DNA of 64,000 nucleotides from a virus (IMGVR_UViG_2061766007_000047:1-64000); one strand, 5' to 3'. Counted from the stretch's first letter, positions 2,022 to 62,090 are shown. The notes: generated by a model not told the origin, from the letters alone. Made by a program: numbers and translations.

Positions 2022-4238
2022 TTAACTAATTGTTTCGTTTATTCTCACTCTTCCTACAATAGCCTTAGATAAGGTTGCATCTGTTTGATACCAAGTCCTT
2101 CTTCCAAGAAGACTACAAGCAAATTCCATACCTTGACTTGTAGTAATTGTTTCTTCTTCTATTCGAATTTCGTTATAGGCAACAAAATGATTTTCAAGAT
2201 AAATTAAATCATCTGCATCAAGAATAGGGTCGCCACGATAAACAAGATTATATTCTAAATCATCATCGTAATAATCTTTAAGCCATGCGCCTTGTGATTT
2301 CGCCATTTGTTGCGAACCGATAAGTGGATTTTGCGAATTTTTCTCAACGCCTTTCTCATGTATAGGAACGGTTAATATATTGTCGGTCACATTAAATGGT
2401 TTTGCATACACCTCAATTTCCTGTTCTGAATCAGATTCAACTACAAGATAATACGCTCCGCTTTCCTTGATAGTTCCTCCACTTATTTCATAATCATAAT
2501 AAGGTGAATCAAGAACGATAGTATTTTCTCCTACTGTTGCATCCACAGATGCAATACTAGCACCATACTCGTTCTCGCCTGTTTTTATTTCTGCTGTTTC
2601 ACCACCTTCTTCATTAGGAACATAATCTACATATACATAAGTGCCGTTGTTTGTTCCCTTTGTAGTATCTTCGTATGTATAAGAATAGATATGAACATTA
2701 AGATTAGATACCCTTTCTAAAGAAGTGGCAACAGGAGCGTGTTTTAATTCATGGTATGTCAACTCATAATCAATATATCCATTGAGTTGAATGTTATTCA
2801 GATGAATTCTTTGATTAGGCATTGCGCTATTAAAGATTATTTTAAGAGCATCAATAATTCCATCGTAGGTATAAACAGTTGATATTGCTAAATTTGTAAT
2901 GGTTTCGCTTGATACTTCTGTTCCTGCAAGATAAAGTTTTACGGTAACAGAAGTGGGAATAACAACAGCAAAATTCAAAAACAGTTGGCTGATATGATAT
3001 TCAGATTTAAAAGAAACATTTATGTTAGGGTTATTCGAAAATTGCCCGTTGCTATCTGCTAATTCAGATGAAACAAATCCAACATACATGAATGATTCTT
3101 CTTCGGGCAAAAATGTCAAAGAACCATCGGCTAAAGCGTAGTTATGTTCTGCATCAGCATAGTTGAATAAGGAATTGTCATCGAATATAGAAGCGGGAAT
3201 AGAATATGAAGTTGCTCCCGTAAACGACACATCGCCTACAAAACTAGGTCTACTTGCATTCTTTATGCAAATTATTCCATCTCTGTCCTCATAAAGAGTA
3301 CATTCACAAGCATTTGCAATCATTTGCAAAGCTTCACGATGGGTACAAACAGGGATTGGGTTAAATATCCGAACTCTTGCTAAAGAAGGGTCTAAATCAA
3401 AATTAGTAACTCCTGCATCTGCAAAGACATTTTGCGCCAATACTGTAGCTGAAATACCCTGTGGATAATACTGCCCTTTATAATACTGTCCATCTAAATA
3501 ATCCAAATATCCCGTACAAGAAAACTTCGCTTGATAGTCGTCACTAGACCAAGACTTTAAGAGCAATTTGCCACCCTTAATCTTATAAATTGAACCATCT
3601 GACATATCGCGCCCATATTCATAAGTAATTTCCTGTTTTTCTTGGATATAATCCGCATAACCATAAGGATTATCCTTATTGAACATATGAAGTCTGTTAT
3701 CAATAGCAAAATCAAATTTTTTTACAGGAAGTTCATTTGAAATATGGTCTACAACATTACTTCTTTGGGTACTCATAATTTGTGTATTTGAGAATTGTAA
3801 TCCAATCCCAAATAAGATTGACTTTAAGCTTAATTTCCCGCTGTCGGGAGTTATTTTAAGGTAATGACAATTAGTATATCCGTCATCAATTCTAAACTCG
3901 CCATCTTCGCCAATGGTATAAGTTTCTGTCTTTGTCCCATTGGTTACAGTAATGCTGTTAGGTGTTGTCAAACCGAATTGAATGGTTAATCCTGCAATGT
4001 TATTCTCATAACCATCAAATTCAAATTGTATATGTCCATCGTTTTCAGATGAAGTAACGACATAAGGTGAATTTGAACCATCATAAAGATGTTCTTCATT
4101 TCCACTAAAAGAAGAAGTGATATGCGCATTTCTTTGAGCATCGTTGTTAATTAAGCCAATATAAACCCATATATAAGATGCTCCACGAAGGGGCAACCTC
4201 ATTTCCTGCCTGTATTGTTCGGTAGTGTATTGCATCAC
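2022..4238 (-). CDS. Baseplate/tail protein
   Basis: 738 aa, beta-rich; HREALQMIANACECTLYEDRDGII and YRGDPILDADD motifs typical of siphovirus tail-hub proteins; follows the Dit-like gene. Confidence 0.7.
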   Translation of the reverse strand: MMQYTTEQYRQEMRLPLRGASYIWVYIGLINNDAQRNAHITSSFSGNEEHLYDGSNSPYVVTSSENDGHIQFEFDGYENNIAGLTIQFGLTTPNSITVTNGTKTETYTIGEDGEFRIDDGYTNCHYLKITPDSGKLSLKSILFGIGLQFSNTQIMSTQRSNVVDHISNELPVKKFDFAIDNRLHMFNKDNPYGYADYIQEKQEITYEYGRDMSDGSIYKIKGGKLLLKSWSSDDYQAKFSCTGYLDYLDGQYYKGQYYPQGISATVLAQNVFADAGVTNFDLDPSLARVRIFNPIPVCTHREALQMIANACECTLYEDRDGIICIKNASRPSFVGDVSFTGATSYSIPASIFDDNSLFNYADAEHNYALADGSLTFLPEEESFMYVGFVSSELADSNGQFSNNPNINVSFKSEYHISQLFLNFAVVIPTSVTVKLYLAGTEVSSETITNLAISTVYTYDGIIDALKIIFNSAMPNQRIHLNNIQLNGYIDYELTYHELKHAPVATSLERVSNLNVHIYSYTYEDTTKGTNNGTYVYVDYVPNEEGGETAEIKTGENEYGASIASVDATVGENTIVLDSPYYDYEISGGTIKESGAYYLVVESDSEQEIEVYAKPFNVTDNILTVPIHEKGVEKNSQNPLIGSQQMAKSQGAWLKDYYDDDLEYNLVYRGDPILDADDLIYLENHFVAYNEIRIEEETITTSQGMEFACSLLGRRTWYQTDATLSKAIVGRVRINETIS

Positions 4239-20618: not shown

Positions 20619-21407
20619 TTATTCCTCTCTAAAAGTAATATTTGAAAACTTTAAGAACTGCCTTACCTGTTCTGCATCAGCTTCACTTACGATAAAATGA
20701 TGCATTCTGATTGCACTTGCTAAATCATCAAGCTTTTCGATTGGCTTCTTTATTTCAGCTTCTTTAACCTTTTCAACAACCTTATTCTTGTCGCTCAGAT
20801 ATTGAGTATTTCTCTGAATGGCTACAGAAAGATTATTCCCACTCTCTAAGTAGGCATCCAAACACTCCTGCTCAACCTCGCTATTGAGGGCTTTAATAGC
20901 ATTGATATCGTTCTTGATTTTCAAGACCATTCCGTTAAGGTCAAAGACGATATCTTGGTCTTTGGTTGAAACATTAAGCCACTTAGGGTTCTCGCTCATT
21001 ACCTTCTCAAAAGGTAGATACTGCTCCAACCCTTGAATATTGTTGTCGTATAAGGTCTTAATATGCTCCTGCTTCTCTCTAGCGCGTTCTTCATCAAATA
21101 GCTTTAATTGACTATTGATAAGGTTAATAGGCGCATCAACAAGTGCAATTACTTCCTTGCAACGACTTTCGAACTTCTGATAAGGTTCATTCCAAGCCTG
21201 TTTTACTGCCTTGCGGGAATCATCCAAATTTGATTTAAGCTTTCTCAAATCAGCCAACAGCTTCTTATCAGCTTTGATGGAATCCTCGGTAACAACATAA
21301 TCCCTGTACTCAGCCATTTTCTCTTTTAATTCAGCTTCAATAGCATCAAGGTTAGTGTTGATAACTCCCGCTTGTTGGTCTACTACCAATTCATTCAGTT
21401 CTGCCAT
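20619..21407 (-). CDS. DUF1351-like coiled-coil protein
   Basis: ADLRKL...RKAVK..WNEPY..FE...PI; usual neighbour of ERF. Confidence 0.75.
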   Translation of the reverse strand: MAELNELVVDQQAGVINTNLDAIEAELKEKMAEYRDYVVTEDSIKADKKLLADLRKLKSNLDDSRKAVKQAWNEPYQKFESRCKEVIALVDAPINLINSQLKLFDEERAREKQEHIKTLYDNNIQGLEQYLPFEKVMSENPKWLNVSTKDQDIVFDLNGMVLKIKNDINAIKALNSEVEQECLDAYLESGNNLSVAIQRNTQYLSDKNKVVEKVKEAEIKKPIEKLDDLASAIRMHHFIVSEADAEQVRQFLKFSNITFREE

Positions 21408-21888
21408 CTTCGTTTTCTTCCTCTCCTAAAATATCTGCCCTTATGTCTTCAATAGCTTTGAAAACAGGTGCAAATTCTGTTAGATTTTCGTACTTCTGCA
21501 TAAAGGATTGCATTTCTCTATACGCTCGGCGTAAAATAATATCTTTTGTATCGGGATTAGAAAAAGCTGTTTCAGCATTGATAAAGCGACCTTTTCTCTC
21601 GGTATCAGACACGTTGTAGTACGCTCTGATTTTTCTAGGCTTCTGTTCCTTTTCAACCTCAATAGCAAGGTTGATTATCACGTTTGTTGCCTGTGTAAGC
21701 CTGTATTTATGCCCTGCTACAGCATCATCCCACTCAAAAAGTTCGTGCAATGGGGATTCTTCGGGTTCTGCATTCTGTAAAAGCAGTTCAGAAGTAACCT
21801 TCCCATATTCCTTTTCGATTTTTTCAAACTCATGTCCTACTGTTTCAGCAGGAACACTAAATTGGTACATTTTCCACGAATAAACCAT
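21391..21888 (-). CDS. Conserved phage protein (SPLHELFEWDD motif); candidate accessory of the array locus
   Basis: 165-aa ORF co-oriented downstream of the array. Confidence 0.7.
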   Translation of the reverse strand: MVYSWKMYQFSVPAETVGHEFEKIEKEYGKVTSELLLQNAEPEESPLHELFEWDDAVAGHKYRLTQATNVIINLAIEVEKEQKPRKIRAYYNVSDTERKGRFINAETAFSNPDTKDIILRRAYREMQSFMQKYENLTEFAPVFKAIEDIRADILGEEENEDGRTE

Positions 21889-21914
21889 CGTCCAATCTCC
21901 TTTCTTATTTCAGT

Positions 21915-22115
21915 TTATTTTGTGTAAAGCATCATTTTGGTTTTTCCAAGTAATGAGAATCCAATAACTTCTCTATCGCCATAATTCTTACGCACAACGT
22001 TTTTATCAGCTTCAATAAGAATGCTTGGTGAACTCATAAAACCTGTTTTATTTGCATCAACAACAGCAAACATAACACCTTGCATATCTAGCTTTGTAAA
22101 CTCCAAAACTGTCAT
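21915..22115 (-). CDS. Small hypothetical protein immediately downstream of the array
   Basis: AAGGAG RBS just after the last GGCAGTT anchor. Confidence 0.65.
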   Translation of the reverse strand: MTVLEFTKLDMQGVMFAVVDANKTGFMSSPSILIEADKNVVRKNYGDREVIGFSLLGKTKMMLYTK

Positions 22116-22134
22116 TTTTTCTCCTTTTTACCTC

Positions 22135-22820
22135 AACTGCCAAGCCAAGCCACAACGTAACTGACCTCGACTAAACCCGCCGTACCCAAACTGCCTTACC
22201 TTACGAGAACCCAACAAGCCTTACCACAACTTGCCTTAACGCGCCATAACTGCCACAACTCGACTAACCTCACGTAGCCAAACCTCAACTCAACTAACCT
22301 TAACTGCCAAACCGAACCAAACCGAACCGTAACAGAACATAACACAACGAACCTCAACTGCCACACCAAGCCTTATCTGACCCGACAATAACGCGCCGTT
22401 CCTTAACTAGCCATAACCCAACTGCCTTACCACAACGTACCTAACCTCACCTAGCCTAAACAGACCCGAACCCACCTTGACTCACCTCAACTGCCGAACC
22501 CAACGTAACCATACCAAAGCCCACCATAACGAACCATACCAAAACTGCCTTACCTAAACAAAGCTTAACTAAACGTACCCAAACGTACCTCACCATAACT
22601 GCCAAAACTAACCGCAACTTGCCCTAACTCAGCAGAACTCACCTCGCCTTGCAGTACCTTACCGCGCCTAACCACGACTAGCCTAACACTACCTTAACTG
22701 CCAAATCTTTAGGTTATGTGGGATGCAATAAGCACCCCACAACCTTCAAACGCACCATAACTGACCGCGACTCGACAGAACATACATGACCCGAACTTAC
22801 CGCACCTTACCTCAACTGCC
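22135..22820 (-). ncRNA. Putative guide-RNA array: 10 units of GGCAGTT anchor + alternating NN and GGY/GTY (VIPR-like)
   Basis: + strand AACTGCC at 22135, 22189, 22248, 22302, 22356, 22420, 22489, 22543, 22597, 22696, 22814; between them a strict 5-nt period, mostly NN-ACC/GCC/AAC/GAC; no ORF >=60 aa. Confidence 0.85.
22711..22745 (-). other. Stem-loop between array units I and II
   Basis: AGGUU-GUGGG-G-UGC(UUAUU)GCA-U-CCCAC-AU-AACCU; the G-U pair favours the minus-strand RNA. Confidence 0.75.
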
Positions 22821-22827
22821 AAACCAC

Positions 22828-23505
22828 TTAGTTATTGACCTCTTCACTTGACTCAATGTGATAACGCCCGAAAATACCGTCTTTTTCGGCTCTCCACTCG
22901 CCAAGACCGCATGAATAGCCACCTGCGTTGATTATGTTAAGTATCTGTTCAAGCGTTAATACTCCCGACTTGTTGTAACTTACAACGATATCCGCGTACC
23001 AATCCTTAAACTCTGCACGATAGCGTAAATCCGCAGTACCCATGCCGATTGTAACGTTGTCTTCACGTATTTCGGGAACACTACCCTTAATTTCAAACAA
23101 TTCTCCAAATTCACTCTCTATAAAATAAGCGCATCTAAGCATTGTCTGATTAGGAGTCCAACCAAGCCTGTATGCTGTAGAATTAGCACTCTGTTTAATT
23201 CCCGTCACAGGGAATCCCCACTTTGCACCATTTTTGACAGCCTGTTCAAAAGCTTTAGGATTTGATTCGGGCTTTGGAGTTAGCCAATACATAGAATTGA
23301 TAAATTCGTCGTAAGGGTCACGAACCTCCTTTGCCTTAGTTACTGTTGATGTTGCTTTAGTCTGCTTATCCAAAATCATCTTTTTGGATTTCTCCGACCA
23401 CGCATGAACAATCAGTGGGCTATCACCCTTAATCCGAATAGATACTTTCTGAATATCAAGTGGTCTGATTTCGATTACACTACCTTCTGTTTTCTTTGTT
23501 GCCAT
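22828..23505 (-). CDS. RAMP/Cas7-like RNA-binding protein (Vipr-like), putative effector of the adjacent array
   Basis: N-terminal strand IRIKGDSPLIVH, FPVTGIKQS, C-terminal Gly-rich loop GGYSCGLGEWRAEKDGIFGRY; array begins 7 nt after the stop. Confidence 0.7.
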   Translation of the reverse strand: MATKKTEGSVIEIRPLDIQKVSIRIKGDSPLIVHAWSEKSKKMILDKQTKATSTVTKAKEVRDPYDEFINSMYWLTPKPESNPKAFEQAVKNGAKWGFPVTGIKQSANSTAYRLGWTPNQTMLRCAYFIESEFGELFEIKGSVPEIREDNVTIGMGTADLRYRAEFKDWYADIVVSYNKSGVLTLEQILNIINAGGYSCGLGEWRAEKDGIFGRYHIESSEEVNN

Positions 23506-36363: not shown

Positions 36364-37209
36364 TTAAGTTGTCTTGGTATATCGAATGATAGTGTAAAAC
36401 TCAACTGTTCCGCTTGTATGGTCATTCTTATAAGTCCACCTTAACTTTGAGTTGGTAGTTGCTTGTTTTACGAATGAACCATACTGCGTTACACTTGCAA
36501 AAGTATCTCCGTTTGATGCTTTCAAAGGTACAGGCGCAATACCCGCACGATTAGTAGAAGTATCTGTGTATTGATACCATGCAAAATGCTGACAATAAAT
36601 AATATGTTTCATATTAGAATCAATAGTGTCAGCATACACTGTAGAAGAAGTACCTTTTTCAACAATTTCATAAACCACTTTTTCATATATTGTTTCACCA
36701 TTCAGCCACTTACCTACTTCACGTTCTTTCGTACTATACTCGTAAGTCCTTGGCAATACATTGGGAAGTGGGTCTATTATCTCCGACATATCTGCTCTAG
36801 GCATAGCATCTGTGAGTTTAAAATACAAAGTATCAAAGTAAGTTTTTAACTTAGACTTGATATTACTCCATGTACTCTTTCTTGCCCCACTTGCTGATAT
36901 ATCATACATGGGAACAAAATCGCCATCAGCTATGGCTGTGAAAGTGTTATCATCTGTATGATAAGCATTTTCATCTATGCCACCACCGCCACCGCTTGAA
37001 AACTCTCTCCATTTTCCTGTATCGGCATCTACTGTGTTTGTGGATTTCCATTGATATGTCTTATCTGTAGCAACGCAATAAGCCATGCAACCATCGTACA
37101 TAGTTGCATCGGCTACTGCTTTCATGTTTGCTAATGTATCGTATTTAAGTCTTCCGTCAAGGGGCTTTGCTCCTTGAAAGCTGAAATTATCACCAATAAC
37201 AAGGCTCAT
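36364..37209 (-). CDS. Fibre/adhesin-like protein B
   Basis: Paralogue of B'. Confidence 0.7.
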   Translation of the reverse strand: MSLVIGDNFSFQGAKPLDGRLKYDTLANMKAVADATMYDGCMAYCVATDKTYQWKSTNTVDADTGKWREFSSGGGGGIDENAYHTDDNTFTAIADGDFVPMYDISASGARKSTWSNIKSKLKTYFDTLYFKLTDAMPRADMSEIIDPLPNVLPRTYEYSTKEREVGKWLNGETIYEKVVYEIVEKGTSSTVYADTIDSNMKHIIYCQHFAWYQYTDTSTNRAGIAPVPLKASNGDTFASVTQYGSFVKQATTNSKLRWTYKNDHTSGTVEFYTIIRYTKTT

Positions 37210-37226
37210 AATCTTTTCCCCCTTTC

Positions 37227-61646: not shown

Positions 61647-62090
61647 TCAGCCGCTTGTTGAATCAACCATCTTAAGAGCATTCTCGCCCTCGTCAGAGAT
61701 GGTGATTGTCATAGGAACAGCCGCATTAGACTCTACAGAGCCTACATATACGGACAGCTTTCCCTGCCACTCAAACTTACCGTACACACCGTTCTCACCG
61801 AACCATACTTGGTAAGTATCAAGCTGAGTCTGTGTCTTATCCCTGTCAGCGTCCGCAATGGCTTGAAGACTTGCATATGTATCCTTGTCATACCATGCAC
61901 CAAATTCAAGTGCAGATACGCTCTGAATACCATTGATGTTTCTTGTCTGAAGGTCAGACAGAGTTGTTACATCAATTTGGTCGGGTGCGCCACCAAGGTC
62001 GGGAATTGATGTGATATCAACAAGCTTTGAAAATGTTGAACCGCCATTTGCCTTGCGCATGAGATACGCTTTGTTTGAAAGAATAGCCAT
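61647..62090 (-). CDS. Major tail (tube) protein
   Basis: LVDITSIPDLGGAPDQIDVTTLSD..NINGIQ. Confidence 0.85.
   Translation of the reverse strand: MAILSNKAYLMRKANGGSTFSKLVDITSIPDLGGAPDQIDVTTLSDLQTRNINGIQSVSALEFGAWYDKDTYASLQAIADADRDKTQTQLDTYQVWFGENGVYGKFEWQGKLSVYVGSVESNAAVPMTITISDEGENALKMVDSTSG

What the first reader, a model, noticed from the sequence alone, without database searches (positions are those of the whole stretch)
22196..22702. The array's NN dinucleotides decode, skipping every third base, to genes of competing phages
Seen: reading NN in RNA order as codon positions 1-2. Unit 22196-22254 = AT GC AA AA GT AA TT GG CT AA AA, compatible with MANKVKFGLKN. Unit 22427-22495 = GA GA AA GG CG CT TA TA GA TA AC GT AA, compatible with DENGRLYYEYTV(K/N). 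Unit 22604-22702 = AA AG TA TA GT TA GC AA AC AA GA GA CT GA AG AA GC TA TT, compatible with KRYYVYAKTKEELERK. From family knowledge (recalled, not searched) these resemble the N-terminus of phi13-family major tail proteins, a Clostridial HK97-type portal segment (..VDRDENGxLYYEY..) and a tyrosine-integrase N-terminal arm. The first is not this phage's own tail protein (MAILSNKAY). Inference: target = NNx-NNx..., with the skipped base at the wobble position so synonymous escape is impossible, aimed at rival temperate phages. Caveats: ambiguous residues (K/N, D/E etc.) were resolved by me, and the other seven units give no peptide I recognise.
Basis: partly seen in the sequence, partly recalled or inferred. 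Interest (0 to 1): 0.95.

Follow-up and report, generated by a model that had tools for sequence, protein, structure and literature searches.

The report
Phage VIPR guide-RNA array, decoded
This 108-kb uncultured gut or rumen phage carries a VIPR system, a CRISPR-like silencer first described in 2026 preprints, and two of its ten five-base-repeat guides exactly spell conserved tail and portal gene motifs of other phages, so it is a new example of a known kind.

Summary

**The array.** On the minus strand, 22112-22820 holds ten full units. Each is GGCA plus 10-19 pentamers of the form G-K-Y-N-N (121 pentamers). It lies just downstream of a 225-aa protein whose model matches only Cas7-type RAMPs.

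**Known kind.** This is a VIPR system (bioRxiv 10.64898/2026.04.26.720920, .720927 and 10.64898/2026.10.15.759431). In VIPR, the NN dinucleotides pair with DNA and skip every third base.

**Targets confirmed.**
- Unit 22196-22254, read as NNx, has 32 exact matches in IMG/VR. All start at the ATG of phi13-family major tail genes (MA[NK]KVKFGLKN), and nine of the ten skipped positions vary.
- Unit 22427-22495 has one exact in-phase match in an HK97-type portal gene.
- The backwards pattern and the 2-nt-gap pattern gave 0 hits.
- The phage itself has neither gene family and no self-target.

**Not confirmed.** The third decoding (integrase arm) found no target. Seven other units also remain without a target; only units 1 and 6 were scanned in the public collections.

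**Differences from the published type II system.**
- The array is staggered and lacks tails.
- Scaffold position 2 is G or T.
- The accessory gene differs.
- Guides appear almost always identical to the coding strand.

This scan has already noted VIPR-like arrays in at least 96 other genomes.

The parts
22828..23505 (-). vipr gene: 225-aa lone RAMP (Cas7-like) protein, phrog_4652, no Pfam family
   Evidence: The AF2 model has pLDDT 78.6. The 35 Foldseek PDB rows printed (ranks 1-50) are all Cas7-type RAMPs (Csm3, type VII Cas7, Cas7-11), best E 9e-7. The C-terminus is 32% identical (pairwise E 5e-11) to the Vipr-like protein of Ounavirinae phage ESCO56. Equivalents of the published contact residues are conserved: H34, K50, R163, E203, W204, R205.
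22703..22820 (-). vrRNA unit 1: GGCA plus 14 pentamers (22747-22816), then a 44-nt non-repeat tail holding a stable hairpin at 22711-22745
   Evidence: Parse. The fold gives -29.8 kcal/mol, z -3.3, and 0 of 200 shuffles fold as well. The exact NNx pattern has 0 hits in IMG/VR.
22604..22702 (-). vrRNA unit 2: 19 pentamers, the longest unit; target unknown
   Evidence: Parse. No target found.
22550..22603 (-). vrRNA unit 3: 10 pentamers; NN begins AT GA; target unknown
   Evidence: No match above shuffles in local searches.
22496..22549 (-). vrRNA unit 4: 10 pentamers; shared with the closest relative L001 (19/20 NN identical)
22427..22495 (-). vrRNA unit 5: 13 pentamers; the guide matches an HK97-type portal gene
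   Evidence: One exact 26/26 NNx hit at L040:3651-3688, phase 0, peptide DDKGRLYYEYTVN. The target ORF matches PF04860 at 1.8e-135 and TIGR01537 at 8.8e-97.
22363..22426 (-). vrRNA unit 6: 12 pentamers; target unknown
   Evidence: The exact pattern has 0 hits in IMG/VR.
22309..22362 (-). vrRNA unit 7: 10 pentamers; target unknown
22255..22308 (-). vrRNA unit 8: 10 pentamers; shared with L001 (20/20 NN identical, while 9 of 30 scaffold bases differ)
22196..22254 (-). vrRNA unit 9: 11 pentamers; the guide matches codons 1-11 of phi13-family major tail protein genes
   Evidence: 32 exact NNx hits, all at the ATG in phase 0. There are 16 distinct target sequences, and 9 of the 10 skipped positions vary. 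TIGR01603 scores 2.8e-27 and 1.6e-35 on two targets. Controls gave 0 hits.
22142..22195 (-). vrRNA unit 10: 10 pentamers; target unknown
22128..22141 (-). Closing GGCA plus two pentamers. This runs straight into the ribosome-binding site of the 66-aa ORF.
21915..22115 (-). 66-aa ORF directly after the array. It has no family match and is absent at this position in relatives. Whether it belongs to the system is unknown.
21391..21888 (-). Candidate vipr-accessory (vap) gene: 165 aa, phrog_15946, conserved H..FEWDD..A..YR..Q motif, no recognised fold
   Evidence: A motif-bearing ORF lies next to vipr or the array in at least 53 of 87 related loci. It is 27% identical (E 6e-12) to the gene directly after vipr in mycobacteriophage Donkeykong. 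It shows no similarity to the gene after vipr in ESCO56. The AF2 model has pLDDT 88, with no informative PDB match.

Best explanation
The locus is a VIPR (Viral Interference Programmable Repeat) system. The mechanism below is taken from the SUSP1 system and inferred for this phage. The 225-aa RAMP protein (Vipr) polymerises along each transcript unit, one protomer per pentamer. It buries the G-K-Y scaffold bases and presents the two N bases. These NN bases pair with one strand of double-stranded DNA while every third target base is flipped out. Read as NNx, a guide therefore spells codon positions 1-2 of a protein-coding target and ignores the wobble base. Shown here: two of the ten guides exactly match the start of phi13-type tail-tube genes and a conserved portal motif of other, at least partly temperate, phages of the kind found in gut Clostridia. 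The likely effect is transcriptional silencing of competitors in a shared host. The array is of the 'staggered' kind: each unit ends in a GGCAG pentamer whose last G is the first base of the next unit, and there are no structured tails between units.
For: Anatomy: the G-K-Y-N-N array with GGCA delimiters. Protein fold: Cas7-type RAMP. Sequence link to a SUSP1-type Vipr and conservation of the published RNA/DNA contact residues. Gene and array co-occur in 7 of 7 viral and 76 of 80 prophage loci. Skip rule, window guides: unit 9 gave 32 exact hits at gap 1, against 0 backwards and 0 at gap 2. Unit 5 gave one exact 26/26 hit. Three other exact patterns of 24-38 specified bases gave 0 hits in IMG/VR, and two patterns of 22 and 38 gave 0 in the metagenome collection, which shows how rare chance matches are. 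Wobble phase: 32 of 32 and 1 of 1 hits in phase 0. Skip rule, family level: of 291 guides from related loci searched against 621 kb of phage DNA, 8 reached at least 90% NN match at gap 1. The counts were 1, 0, 0 and 0 for gaps 0, 2, 3 and reversed. The 10 hits on provirus G004 are all in phase 0, in genes for a DUF2800 nuclease, PolA, a D5-like primase, TerL, the portal and a serine recombinase. No self-target, and the target families are absent from the phage itself. NN is conserved while the scaffold drifts in guides shared with L001: 1 of 40 versus 14 of 60 differences, Fisher p 0.004. Published mechanism.
Against: Only 2 of 10 guides have an identified target. No RNA data could be obtained, so expression, processing sites and RNP formation are not shown for this phage. 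41% of pentamers have T, not G, at scaffold position 2. In SUSP1 a GGY>GAY change abolished silencing, so recognition must be somewhat different in this clade. The accessory gene has no recognisable DNA-binding fold. The host of this phage and the hosts of the exact-match target contigs are unknown, so a shared host is inferred from the Clostridia hosts of relatives.
Confidence: 0.93

Rival explanations
1. The locus is a VIPR system, but it destroys its targets or blocks their replication or packaging rather than silencing transcription. The conserved FEWDD accessory protein of unknown fold would act as the effector.
For: The accessory gene is conserved next to vipr across Clostridia, Alphaproteobacteria and mycobacteriophage loci and has no recognisable fold. 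The VIPR paper reports types with nuclease or helicase accessory genes. Targets include replication and packaging genes.
Against: No nuclease or helicase signature appears in Pfam or PHROGs for the 165-aa protein. In the published work the phage-borne type acts by repression, and the nuclease-bearing types sit in host defence islands.
Confidence: 0.08
2. The array is a protein-binding RNA in the style of TRAP or CsrA sponges. The triplets are the binding sites and the NN are meaningless spacers.
For: Three conserved plus two variable bases per 5 nt is the layout of TRAP binding sites (own knowledge). This was my first working idea.
Against: Meaningless spacers would not give 32 exact in-phase matches to one gene family with 0 in controls. 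They would also not stay identical while the triplets drift.
Confidence: 0.01
3. The guides act on messenger RNA as antisense regulators, not on DNA.
For: Cas7-family proteins of type III systems guide RNA targeting (one search lists them as the closest folds).
Against: All 13 guides with a match of 88% or better, two of them from this window, have the same sense as the target's coding strand. They cannot pair with its mRNA and could pair only with the template DNA strand. The published system binds double-stranded DNA.
Confidence: 0.01
4. Some or all units are decoys or anti-VIPR guides. They would redirect another element's Vipr rather than serve this phage's own attack, as reported for satellite-borne solo vrRNAs.
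For: The October 2026 preprint describes vrRNAs used to redirect a rival's VIPR. Eight units here have no identified target.
Against: The array sits directly beside its own vipr gene in all relatives. The two decoded guides hit essential structural genes of other phages, not vipr genes or host repeats.
Confidence: 0.03

Closest known systems
VIPR systems (Vipr + vrRNA + vap), bioRxiv 10.64898/2026.04.26.720920, in particular the 'staggered arrays with overlapping vrRNAs' of its fig. S18
   Same: Lone small RAMP protein. Guide RNAs made of tandem pentamers with a fixed triplet and a variable NN. Target read with a one-base skip that falls on the codon wobble position. Targets in other phages, no self-targets, phage-borne. 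Units joined with a 1-nt overlap (GGCAG/G), as the legend of fig. S18 describes and as I saw in mycobacteriophage Donkeykong.
   Different: I could not see the figures or data tables, so I cannot say which of the seven types this is. Here scaffold position 2 is G or T (55% and 41%). The alternative consensus forms listed in the paper's methods (NNNGG, YNNNG, NNNNG) do not describe that. One unit has 19 repeats against the published 9-16. Guides appear almost all coding-strand-identical, whereas the paper reports targets on both strands.
Type II VIPR of Escherichia phage SUSP1 (the experimentally characterised system; cryo-EM in bioRxiv 10.64898/2026.04.26.720927)
   Same: The contact residues have equivalents here. 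In an ESCO56 relative the numbering matches the paper: H17, K33, R138, D177, W178, R179. These align with H34, K50, R163, E203, W204, R205 here.
   Different: Only the C-terminal 74 residues align by BLAST, at 32%. SUSP1-type vrRNAs each end in a structured tail or pseudoknot and lie on both sides of the operon. Here nine of the ten units have no tail. The accessory gene is unrelated. The published natural targets are a satellite and prophage regulators; here they are conserved motifs of structural genes.
Class 1 CRISPR-Cas backbone proteins (Cas7/Csm3 of type III, type VII Cas7, Cas7-11)
   Same: Best structural matches of the 225-aa protein. RAMP proteins polymerise on a guide RNA with fixed periodicity.
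   Different: There is no repeat-spacer array and no other cas gene nearby. The periodicity is 5 nt with 2 pairing bases, not 6 nt with 5 pairing bases. Sequence identity is only 10-14%.

Membership tests
VIPR | A lone small RAMP protein (RRM core, glycine-rich loop, thumb) outside a CRISPR-cas context | tested here: met
   AF2 model. The Foldseek top rows are all Cas7-type RAMPs, best E 9e-7. The glycine-rich motif GG..G.GEWR.E.DG is invariant in the family. The neighbours are Erf, DUF1351, a NinB-like protein and a cell-wall hydrolase, not cas genes.
VIPR | Residues that hold the scaffold bases and the skipped target base in the solved SUSP1 complex (H17, K33, R138, D177, W178, R179) | tested here: met
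   Alignment with the ESCO56 homologue, whose numbering coincides with the paper's, places H34, K50, R163, E203 (D to E), W204 and R205 at these positions. All but K50 are invariant in 17 family members.
VIPR | Guide RNA genes made of tandem GGY-NN pentamers, 9-16 per guide, beside the vipr gene | tested here: met
   121 pentamers G-K-Y-N-N in ten units of 10-19. In 332 units from 77 related loci the length is 8-19, with the mode at 10-11. Deviation: position 2 is T in 41% of pentamers here, and up to 50% in other AT-rich relatives.
VIPR | Targets follow the one-base skip rule (NNx) better than other gaps or shuffled guides | tested here: met
   Unit 9: 32 exact hits at gap 1, against 0 backwards and 0 at gap 2. 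Unit 5: 1 exact hit. Family guides with at least 90% NN match: 8 at gap 1, against 1, 0, 0, 0. Gaps 0 and 3 were not scanned in the public collections.
VIPR | The skipped base falls on the codon wobble position of protein-coding targets | tested here: met
   33 of 33 exact hits are in phase 0. So are 10 of 10 family hits on provirus G004 and 2 of 2 further hits.
VIPR | No self-targeting of the carrier genome | tested here: met
   No unit exceeds shuffled guides at any gap in the 108,491-bp genome with the array masked.
VIPR | An accessory vap gene in the operon | tested here: inconclusive
   A conserved 165-aa gene accompanies vipr in most relatives. It is unrelated to the ESCO56 (type II) partner and has no recognisable fold. 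I could not compare it with vap2-6 because the paper's tables are not held.
VIPR | vrRNAs are expressed, processed and co-purify with Vipr; the complex silences a matching target | not testable with these tools
This needs experiments.
CRISPR-Cas (class 1) | Repeat-spacer array with contiguous spacers, and several cas genes | tested here: not met
   The array has 5-nt periodicity with a 4-nt delimiter and no 24-40-nt repeats. There are no cas families in the neighbours and no Rfam match.

The most novel reading that the evidence does not exclude
In this Vipr clade (Clostridia, Alphaproteobacteria and actinophage loci with staggered, tail-less arrays) guides are almost exclusively identical to the coding strand of their targets. 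The scaffold also tolerates U at position 2. The strand rule would mean one of two things. Either guides are made from, or selected against, one strand only (for example C-poor guides, or acquisition from transcripts), or this clade must pair with the template strand to work. Both differ from the published both-strand behaviour of type II.
Probability: 0.4. Interest if true: 0.55.

Novelty: new member of a known kind. Interest (0 to 1): 0.4.

Why it matters
VIPR is a very recent discovery (three 2026 preprints), characterised mainly in E. coli and Pseudomonas elements. This locus independently reproduces its central claims on unrelated DNA from an uncultured 108-kb phage: the one-base skip, the wobble phase and rival phages as targets.

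It also gives a clean natural example of why the code is useful. One 11-pentamer guide matches 16 different synonymous versions of the same 11 codons, in tail proteins that are otherwise only 35-48% identical.

It points to three things worth checking across the clade: the sense-strand rule, G/U at scaffold position 2, and an accessory protein of unknown fold.

As a discovery it adds little, because the kind and the mechanism are already in print and this scan has met VIPR-like arrays in many other genomes.

Tried and rejected
- **TRAP-like or sponge RNA and G-quadruplex ideas.** Dropped after the exact in-phase target hits.
- **Rfam.** No family in 21500-23500.
- **blastn of the locus against GenBank phages.** Nothing.
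- **Unit 2 (integrase reading).** 0 exact hits in IMG/VR. 0 in the metagenome collection for the full pattern and for an 11-pentamer seed. 0 at up to 3 mismatches in 239 genomes of the order of the closest prophage host.
- **Units 1 and 6.** 0 exact hits in IMG/VR.
- **Convergence of the window's other units on the same rivals.** None in 33 target loci or in five whole target contigs.
- **Unit 9 in five Vipr-carrying host genomes, up to 2 mismatches.** 0.
- **Named GenBank phages with this tail family.** They reach only 17-19 of 22 NN, so I do not claim them as targets.
- **Fold of the 165-aa accessory protein.** No Foldseek match at E <= 0.001. Best VIA-align Z was 5.2, on a generic helical hairpin. 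The ESM Atlas neighbours are unnamed viral clusters.
- **The 'missing CC dinucleotide' noted for this window.** About 2 are expected from the column frequencies and 0 are observed, which is not significant. CC is simply the rarest NN family-wide, at 2.3%.
- **Promoter and terminator scan.** Nothing convincing around the array.

Full report
**What is there.** Every large ORF listed in the window lies on the minus strand. Read on that strand, 22112-22820 is non-coding and strictly periodic. GGCAGTT occurs eleven times, and all spacings are 4 mod 5. Cutting each unit as GGCA plus pentamers gives ten full units of 10-19 pentamers and a stub of two.
- Over 121 pentamers, position 1 is G in 114, position 2 is G in 67 and T in 50, and position 3 is T in 98 and C in 22. 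Positions 4-5 take 15 of the 16 dinucleotides.
- Unit 1 alone is followed by a 44-nt non-repeat tail with a stable hairpin at 22711-22745.
- Upstream lies a 225-aa ORF (22828-23505, phrog_4652, no Pfam).
- Downstream lie a 66-aa ORF, a 165-aa ORF (phrog_15946), then DUF1351, Erf and a NinB-like gene. This places the locus in the early or recombination region of the phage.
- The window belongs to a 108,491-bp IMG/VR virus record rated complete.

**It is a conserved gene-plus-array module.** Seven IMG/VR relatives of the 225-aa protein (41-86% identity) all carry the same kind of array next to it.
- In one genome per species, 111 stretches encode a relative. Of the 80 loci kept, 76 have a G-K-Y-N-N array on the gene's strand, usually directly downstream. 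Only one short run lies on the other strand. At least two of the four exceptions end at or just after the gene.
- The closest hosts are gut and rumen Clostridia (Oscillospiraceae, Lachnospiraceae, Acutalibacteraceae). More distant members sit in Alphaproteobacteria.
- Members also occur in Mycobacterium and Gordonia phages.
- The protein family is large: 3,029 proteins at E <= 0.001.

**The protein is a RAMP.** The AF2 model has pLDDT 78.6. Every row printed by Foldseek against the PDB (35 rows, ranks 1-50) is a Cas7-type RAMP: Csm3, type VII Cas7 or Cas7-11. The best E-value is 9e-7 with TM about 0.48.

- That paper defines VIPR systems as a lone ancestral RAMP (Vipr), vrRNAs of 9-16 GGY/NN pentamers, and an accessory vap gene.
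- It shows by pangenome search, binding assays and reporter repression that the NN bases recognise double-stranded DNA with a one-nucleotide skip. The skip mostly falls on the wobble position.
- Natural targets lie in competing satellites and prophages.
- A companion cryo-EM paper (.720927) shows one protomer per pentamer, the GGY bases buried, and the skipped target base flipped into a pocket.
- A third preprint (10.64898/2026.10.15.759431) shows the competitive role in infection.
- The paper also mentions 'staggered arrays' whose vrRNAs overlap by 1 nt. That fits the junction here, where GGCAG is a regular pentamer whose last G begins the next unit. I saw the same 1-nt-overlapping runs in mycobacteriophage Donkeykong.

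**Sequence link to the characterised type.**
- tblastn gives a weak C-terminal hit to Ounavirinae phages.
- In one of them (ESCO56, locus L121) the hit gene is flanked by GGY-NN tracts, each followed by a structured tail. That is the published type II layout.
- The pairwise alignment is 32% over 74 residues, E 5e-11.
- In the multiple alignment the ESCO56 numbering coincides with the residues named in the cryo-EM paper. These align with H34, K50, R163, E203, W204 and R205 of the window protein.
- All of these except K50 are invariant across 17 family members.

**Direct test of the decoding.**
- Unit 9 (22196-22254), written as NNx, has 32 exact matches in IMG/VR.
- Every one starts at the ATG of an ORF of about 190 aa, in phase 0, encoding MANKVKFGLKN or MAKKVKFGLKN.
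- Two of these ORFs were scanned, and both match TIGR01603, the phi13-family major tail protein, at 2.8e-27 and 1.6e-35.
- The 32 sites comprise 16 different sequences, and nine of the ten skipped positions vary.
- The proteins are only 35-48% identical overall. Ten of their 18 invariant alignment columns lie in the first 12. Part of that is by construction, since the hits were selected by the pattern.
- The same pattern read backwards gave 0 hits, and the 2-nt-gap version gave 0.
- Unit 5 (22427-22495) has one exact 26/26 match, in phase 0. It lies in a portal gene (PF04860 at 1.8e-135, TIGR01537 at 8.8e-97) and spells DDKGRLYYEYTVN.
- Five other exact patterns of 22-38 specified bases gave 0 hits. 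Chance matches at this information content are therefore rare.

**The targets are not the phage's own genes.**
- The genome has no TIGR01603 or PF04860 match.
- Its own major tail protein (61647-62090, MAILSNKAY...) belongs to phrog_158.
- No guide exceeds shuffled guides at any gap on the masked genome.
- The tail family occurs in named temperate phages and prophages of Ruminococcus, Coprococcus, Blautia, Agathobacter, Oscillospiraceae, Clostridium and Streptococcus. These hosts overlap those of the Vipr clade.
- The four named phages I checked reach only 17-19 of 22 NN. I do not claim them as targets.
- IMG/VR classes two of the five fully fetched target records as proviruses. One of them (G004) carries a serine recombinase. 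This fits 'temperate rivals'.

**Family-level replication.** I parsed 332 units from 77 related loci. I searched 291 guides from other loci against 621 kb: this phage plus the target loci and contigs.
- Guides reaching at least 90% NN match: 8 at gap 1, against 1, 0, 0 and 0 for gap 0, gap 2, gap 3 and reversed gap 1.
- Nine guides from seven other loci, plus this window's unit 5, fall on provirus G004. All ten are in phase 0.
- The genes hit encode a DUF2800 PD-(D/E)XK nuclease, a family A DNA polymerase, a D5-like primase, the large terminase, the portal and a serine recombinase.
- These are imperfect matches (88-96%). I read them as hits to the target families, not proof that G004 itself is the victim. 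An earlier check in this scan warned against leaning on matches near 80%.

**Selection on NN.** Two units are shared with the closest relative, L001. NN differ at 1 of 40 positions while scaffold bases differ at 14 of 60 (Fisher p 0.004). The remaining eight units are not shared, so array content turns over.

**What differs from the published description.**
- *Scaffold position 2.* It is G or T here (55% and 41%), with T up to 50% in other AT-rich relatives. In GC-rich relatives it is almost always G. In SUSP1 a GGY>GAY change abolished silencing.
- *Strand.* All 13 guides with a match of 88% or better are identical to the coding strand.
- *A database-free check of the strand rule.* The NN composition of 3,627 pentamers fits 'codon positions 1-2, sense' best of six register and orientation models. 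The maximum-likelihood sense fraction is 0.95 (bootstrap 0.88-1.00). The window alone gives 1.00 (0.68-1.00). The paper reports natural targets on both strands.
- *Caveat on that check.* NN are poorer in C than codons are: 12% at N4, against about 19% at codon position 1. A constraint against C in guides could itself produce the bias.
- *Accessory gene.* The conserved 165-aa FEWDD protein is homologous to the gene after vipr in Donkeykong. It is unrelated to the type II partner and has no recognisable fold.
- I cannot assign one of the seven published types, because the figures and tables are not held.

**Not resolved.**
- Expression and processing could not be examined.

**Verdict.** The kind is already known, and this scan has noted it in at least 96 other genomes. 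This is a new, well-decoded member with a few clade-level peculiarities.

Noticed in passing
L122:2034-2323 (Mycobacterium phage Donkeykong, NC_051648.1, about 36921-37210): A staggered GKY-NN array (five runs of 8-12 pentamers joined by 1-nt overlaps) lies just upstream of the Vipr homologue gp49. It sits under the annotated 'hypothetical protein' gp48 (and the end of gp47), which is probably a spurious ORF call over guide-RNA genes.
   Followed up: partly
L121:2334-2510 and 3721-3780 (Escherichia phage vB_EcoM_ESCO56, OM386665.1): An Ounavirinae phage with an unannotated type II-like VIPR locus. Three GGY-NN tracts (10, 9 and 12 pentamers), each followed by a structured tail, flank a 195-aa Vipr-like gene and a 146-aa partner. 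Both genes are annotated as hypothetical.
   Followed up: partly
G004 = IMGVR_UViG_2681813434_000004 (L131-L133), 40,572 bp provirus: Guides from seven different VIPR loci, plus this window's unit 5, match this one provirus at 88-100% NN, all in wobble phase. The genes hit are its replication, packaging, portal and recombinase genes, so it looks like a common type of target.
   Followed up: partly
L002 and L035 (IMG/VR sample 3300031867): A VIPR-carrying relative of this phage and a phage with an exact unit-9 target come from the same metagenome. This is consistent with the two kinds of phage meeting in one habitat.
   Followed up: no
window 22711-22745 (minus strand): A single stable hairpin (9-10 bp stem, UUAUU loop) follows the first unit only. 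Relatives L002 and L005 have a hairpin between vipr and the array instead. Its role (terminator, processing signal or tail of the first guide) is open.
   Followed up: partly
window 21915-22115 (minus strand): A 66-aa ORF with a strong ribosome-binding site directly follows the last pentamers. It has no family match and no counterpart at this position in the closest relative, L001.
   Followed up: partly
Not examined here.
   Followed up: no
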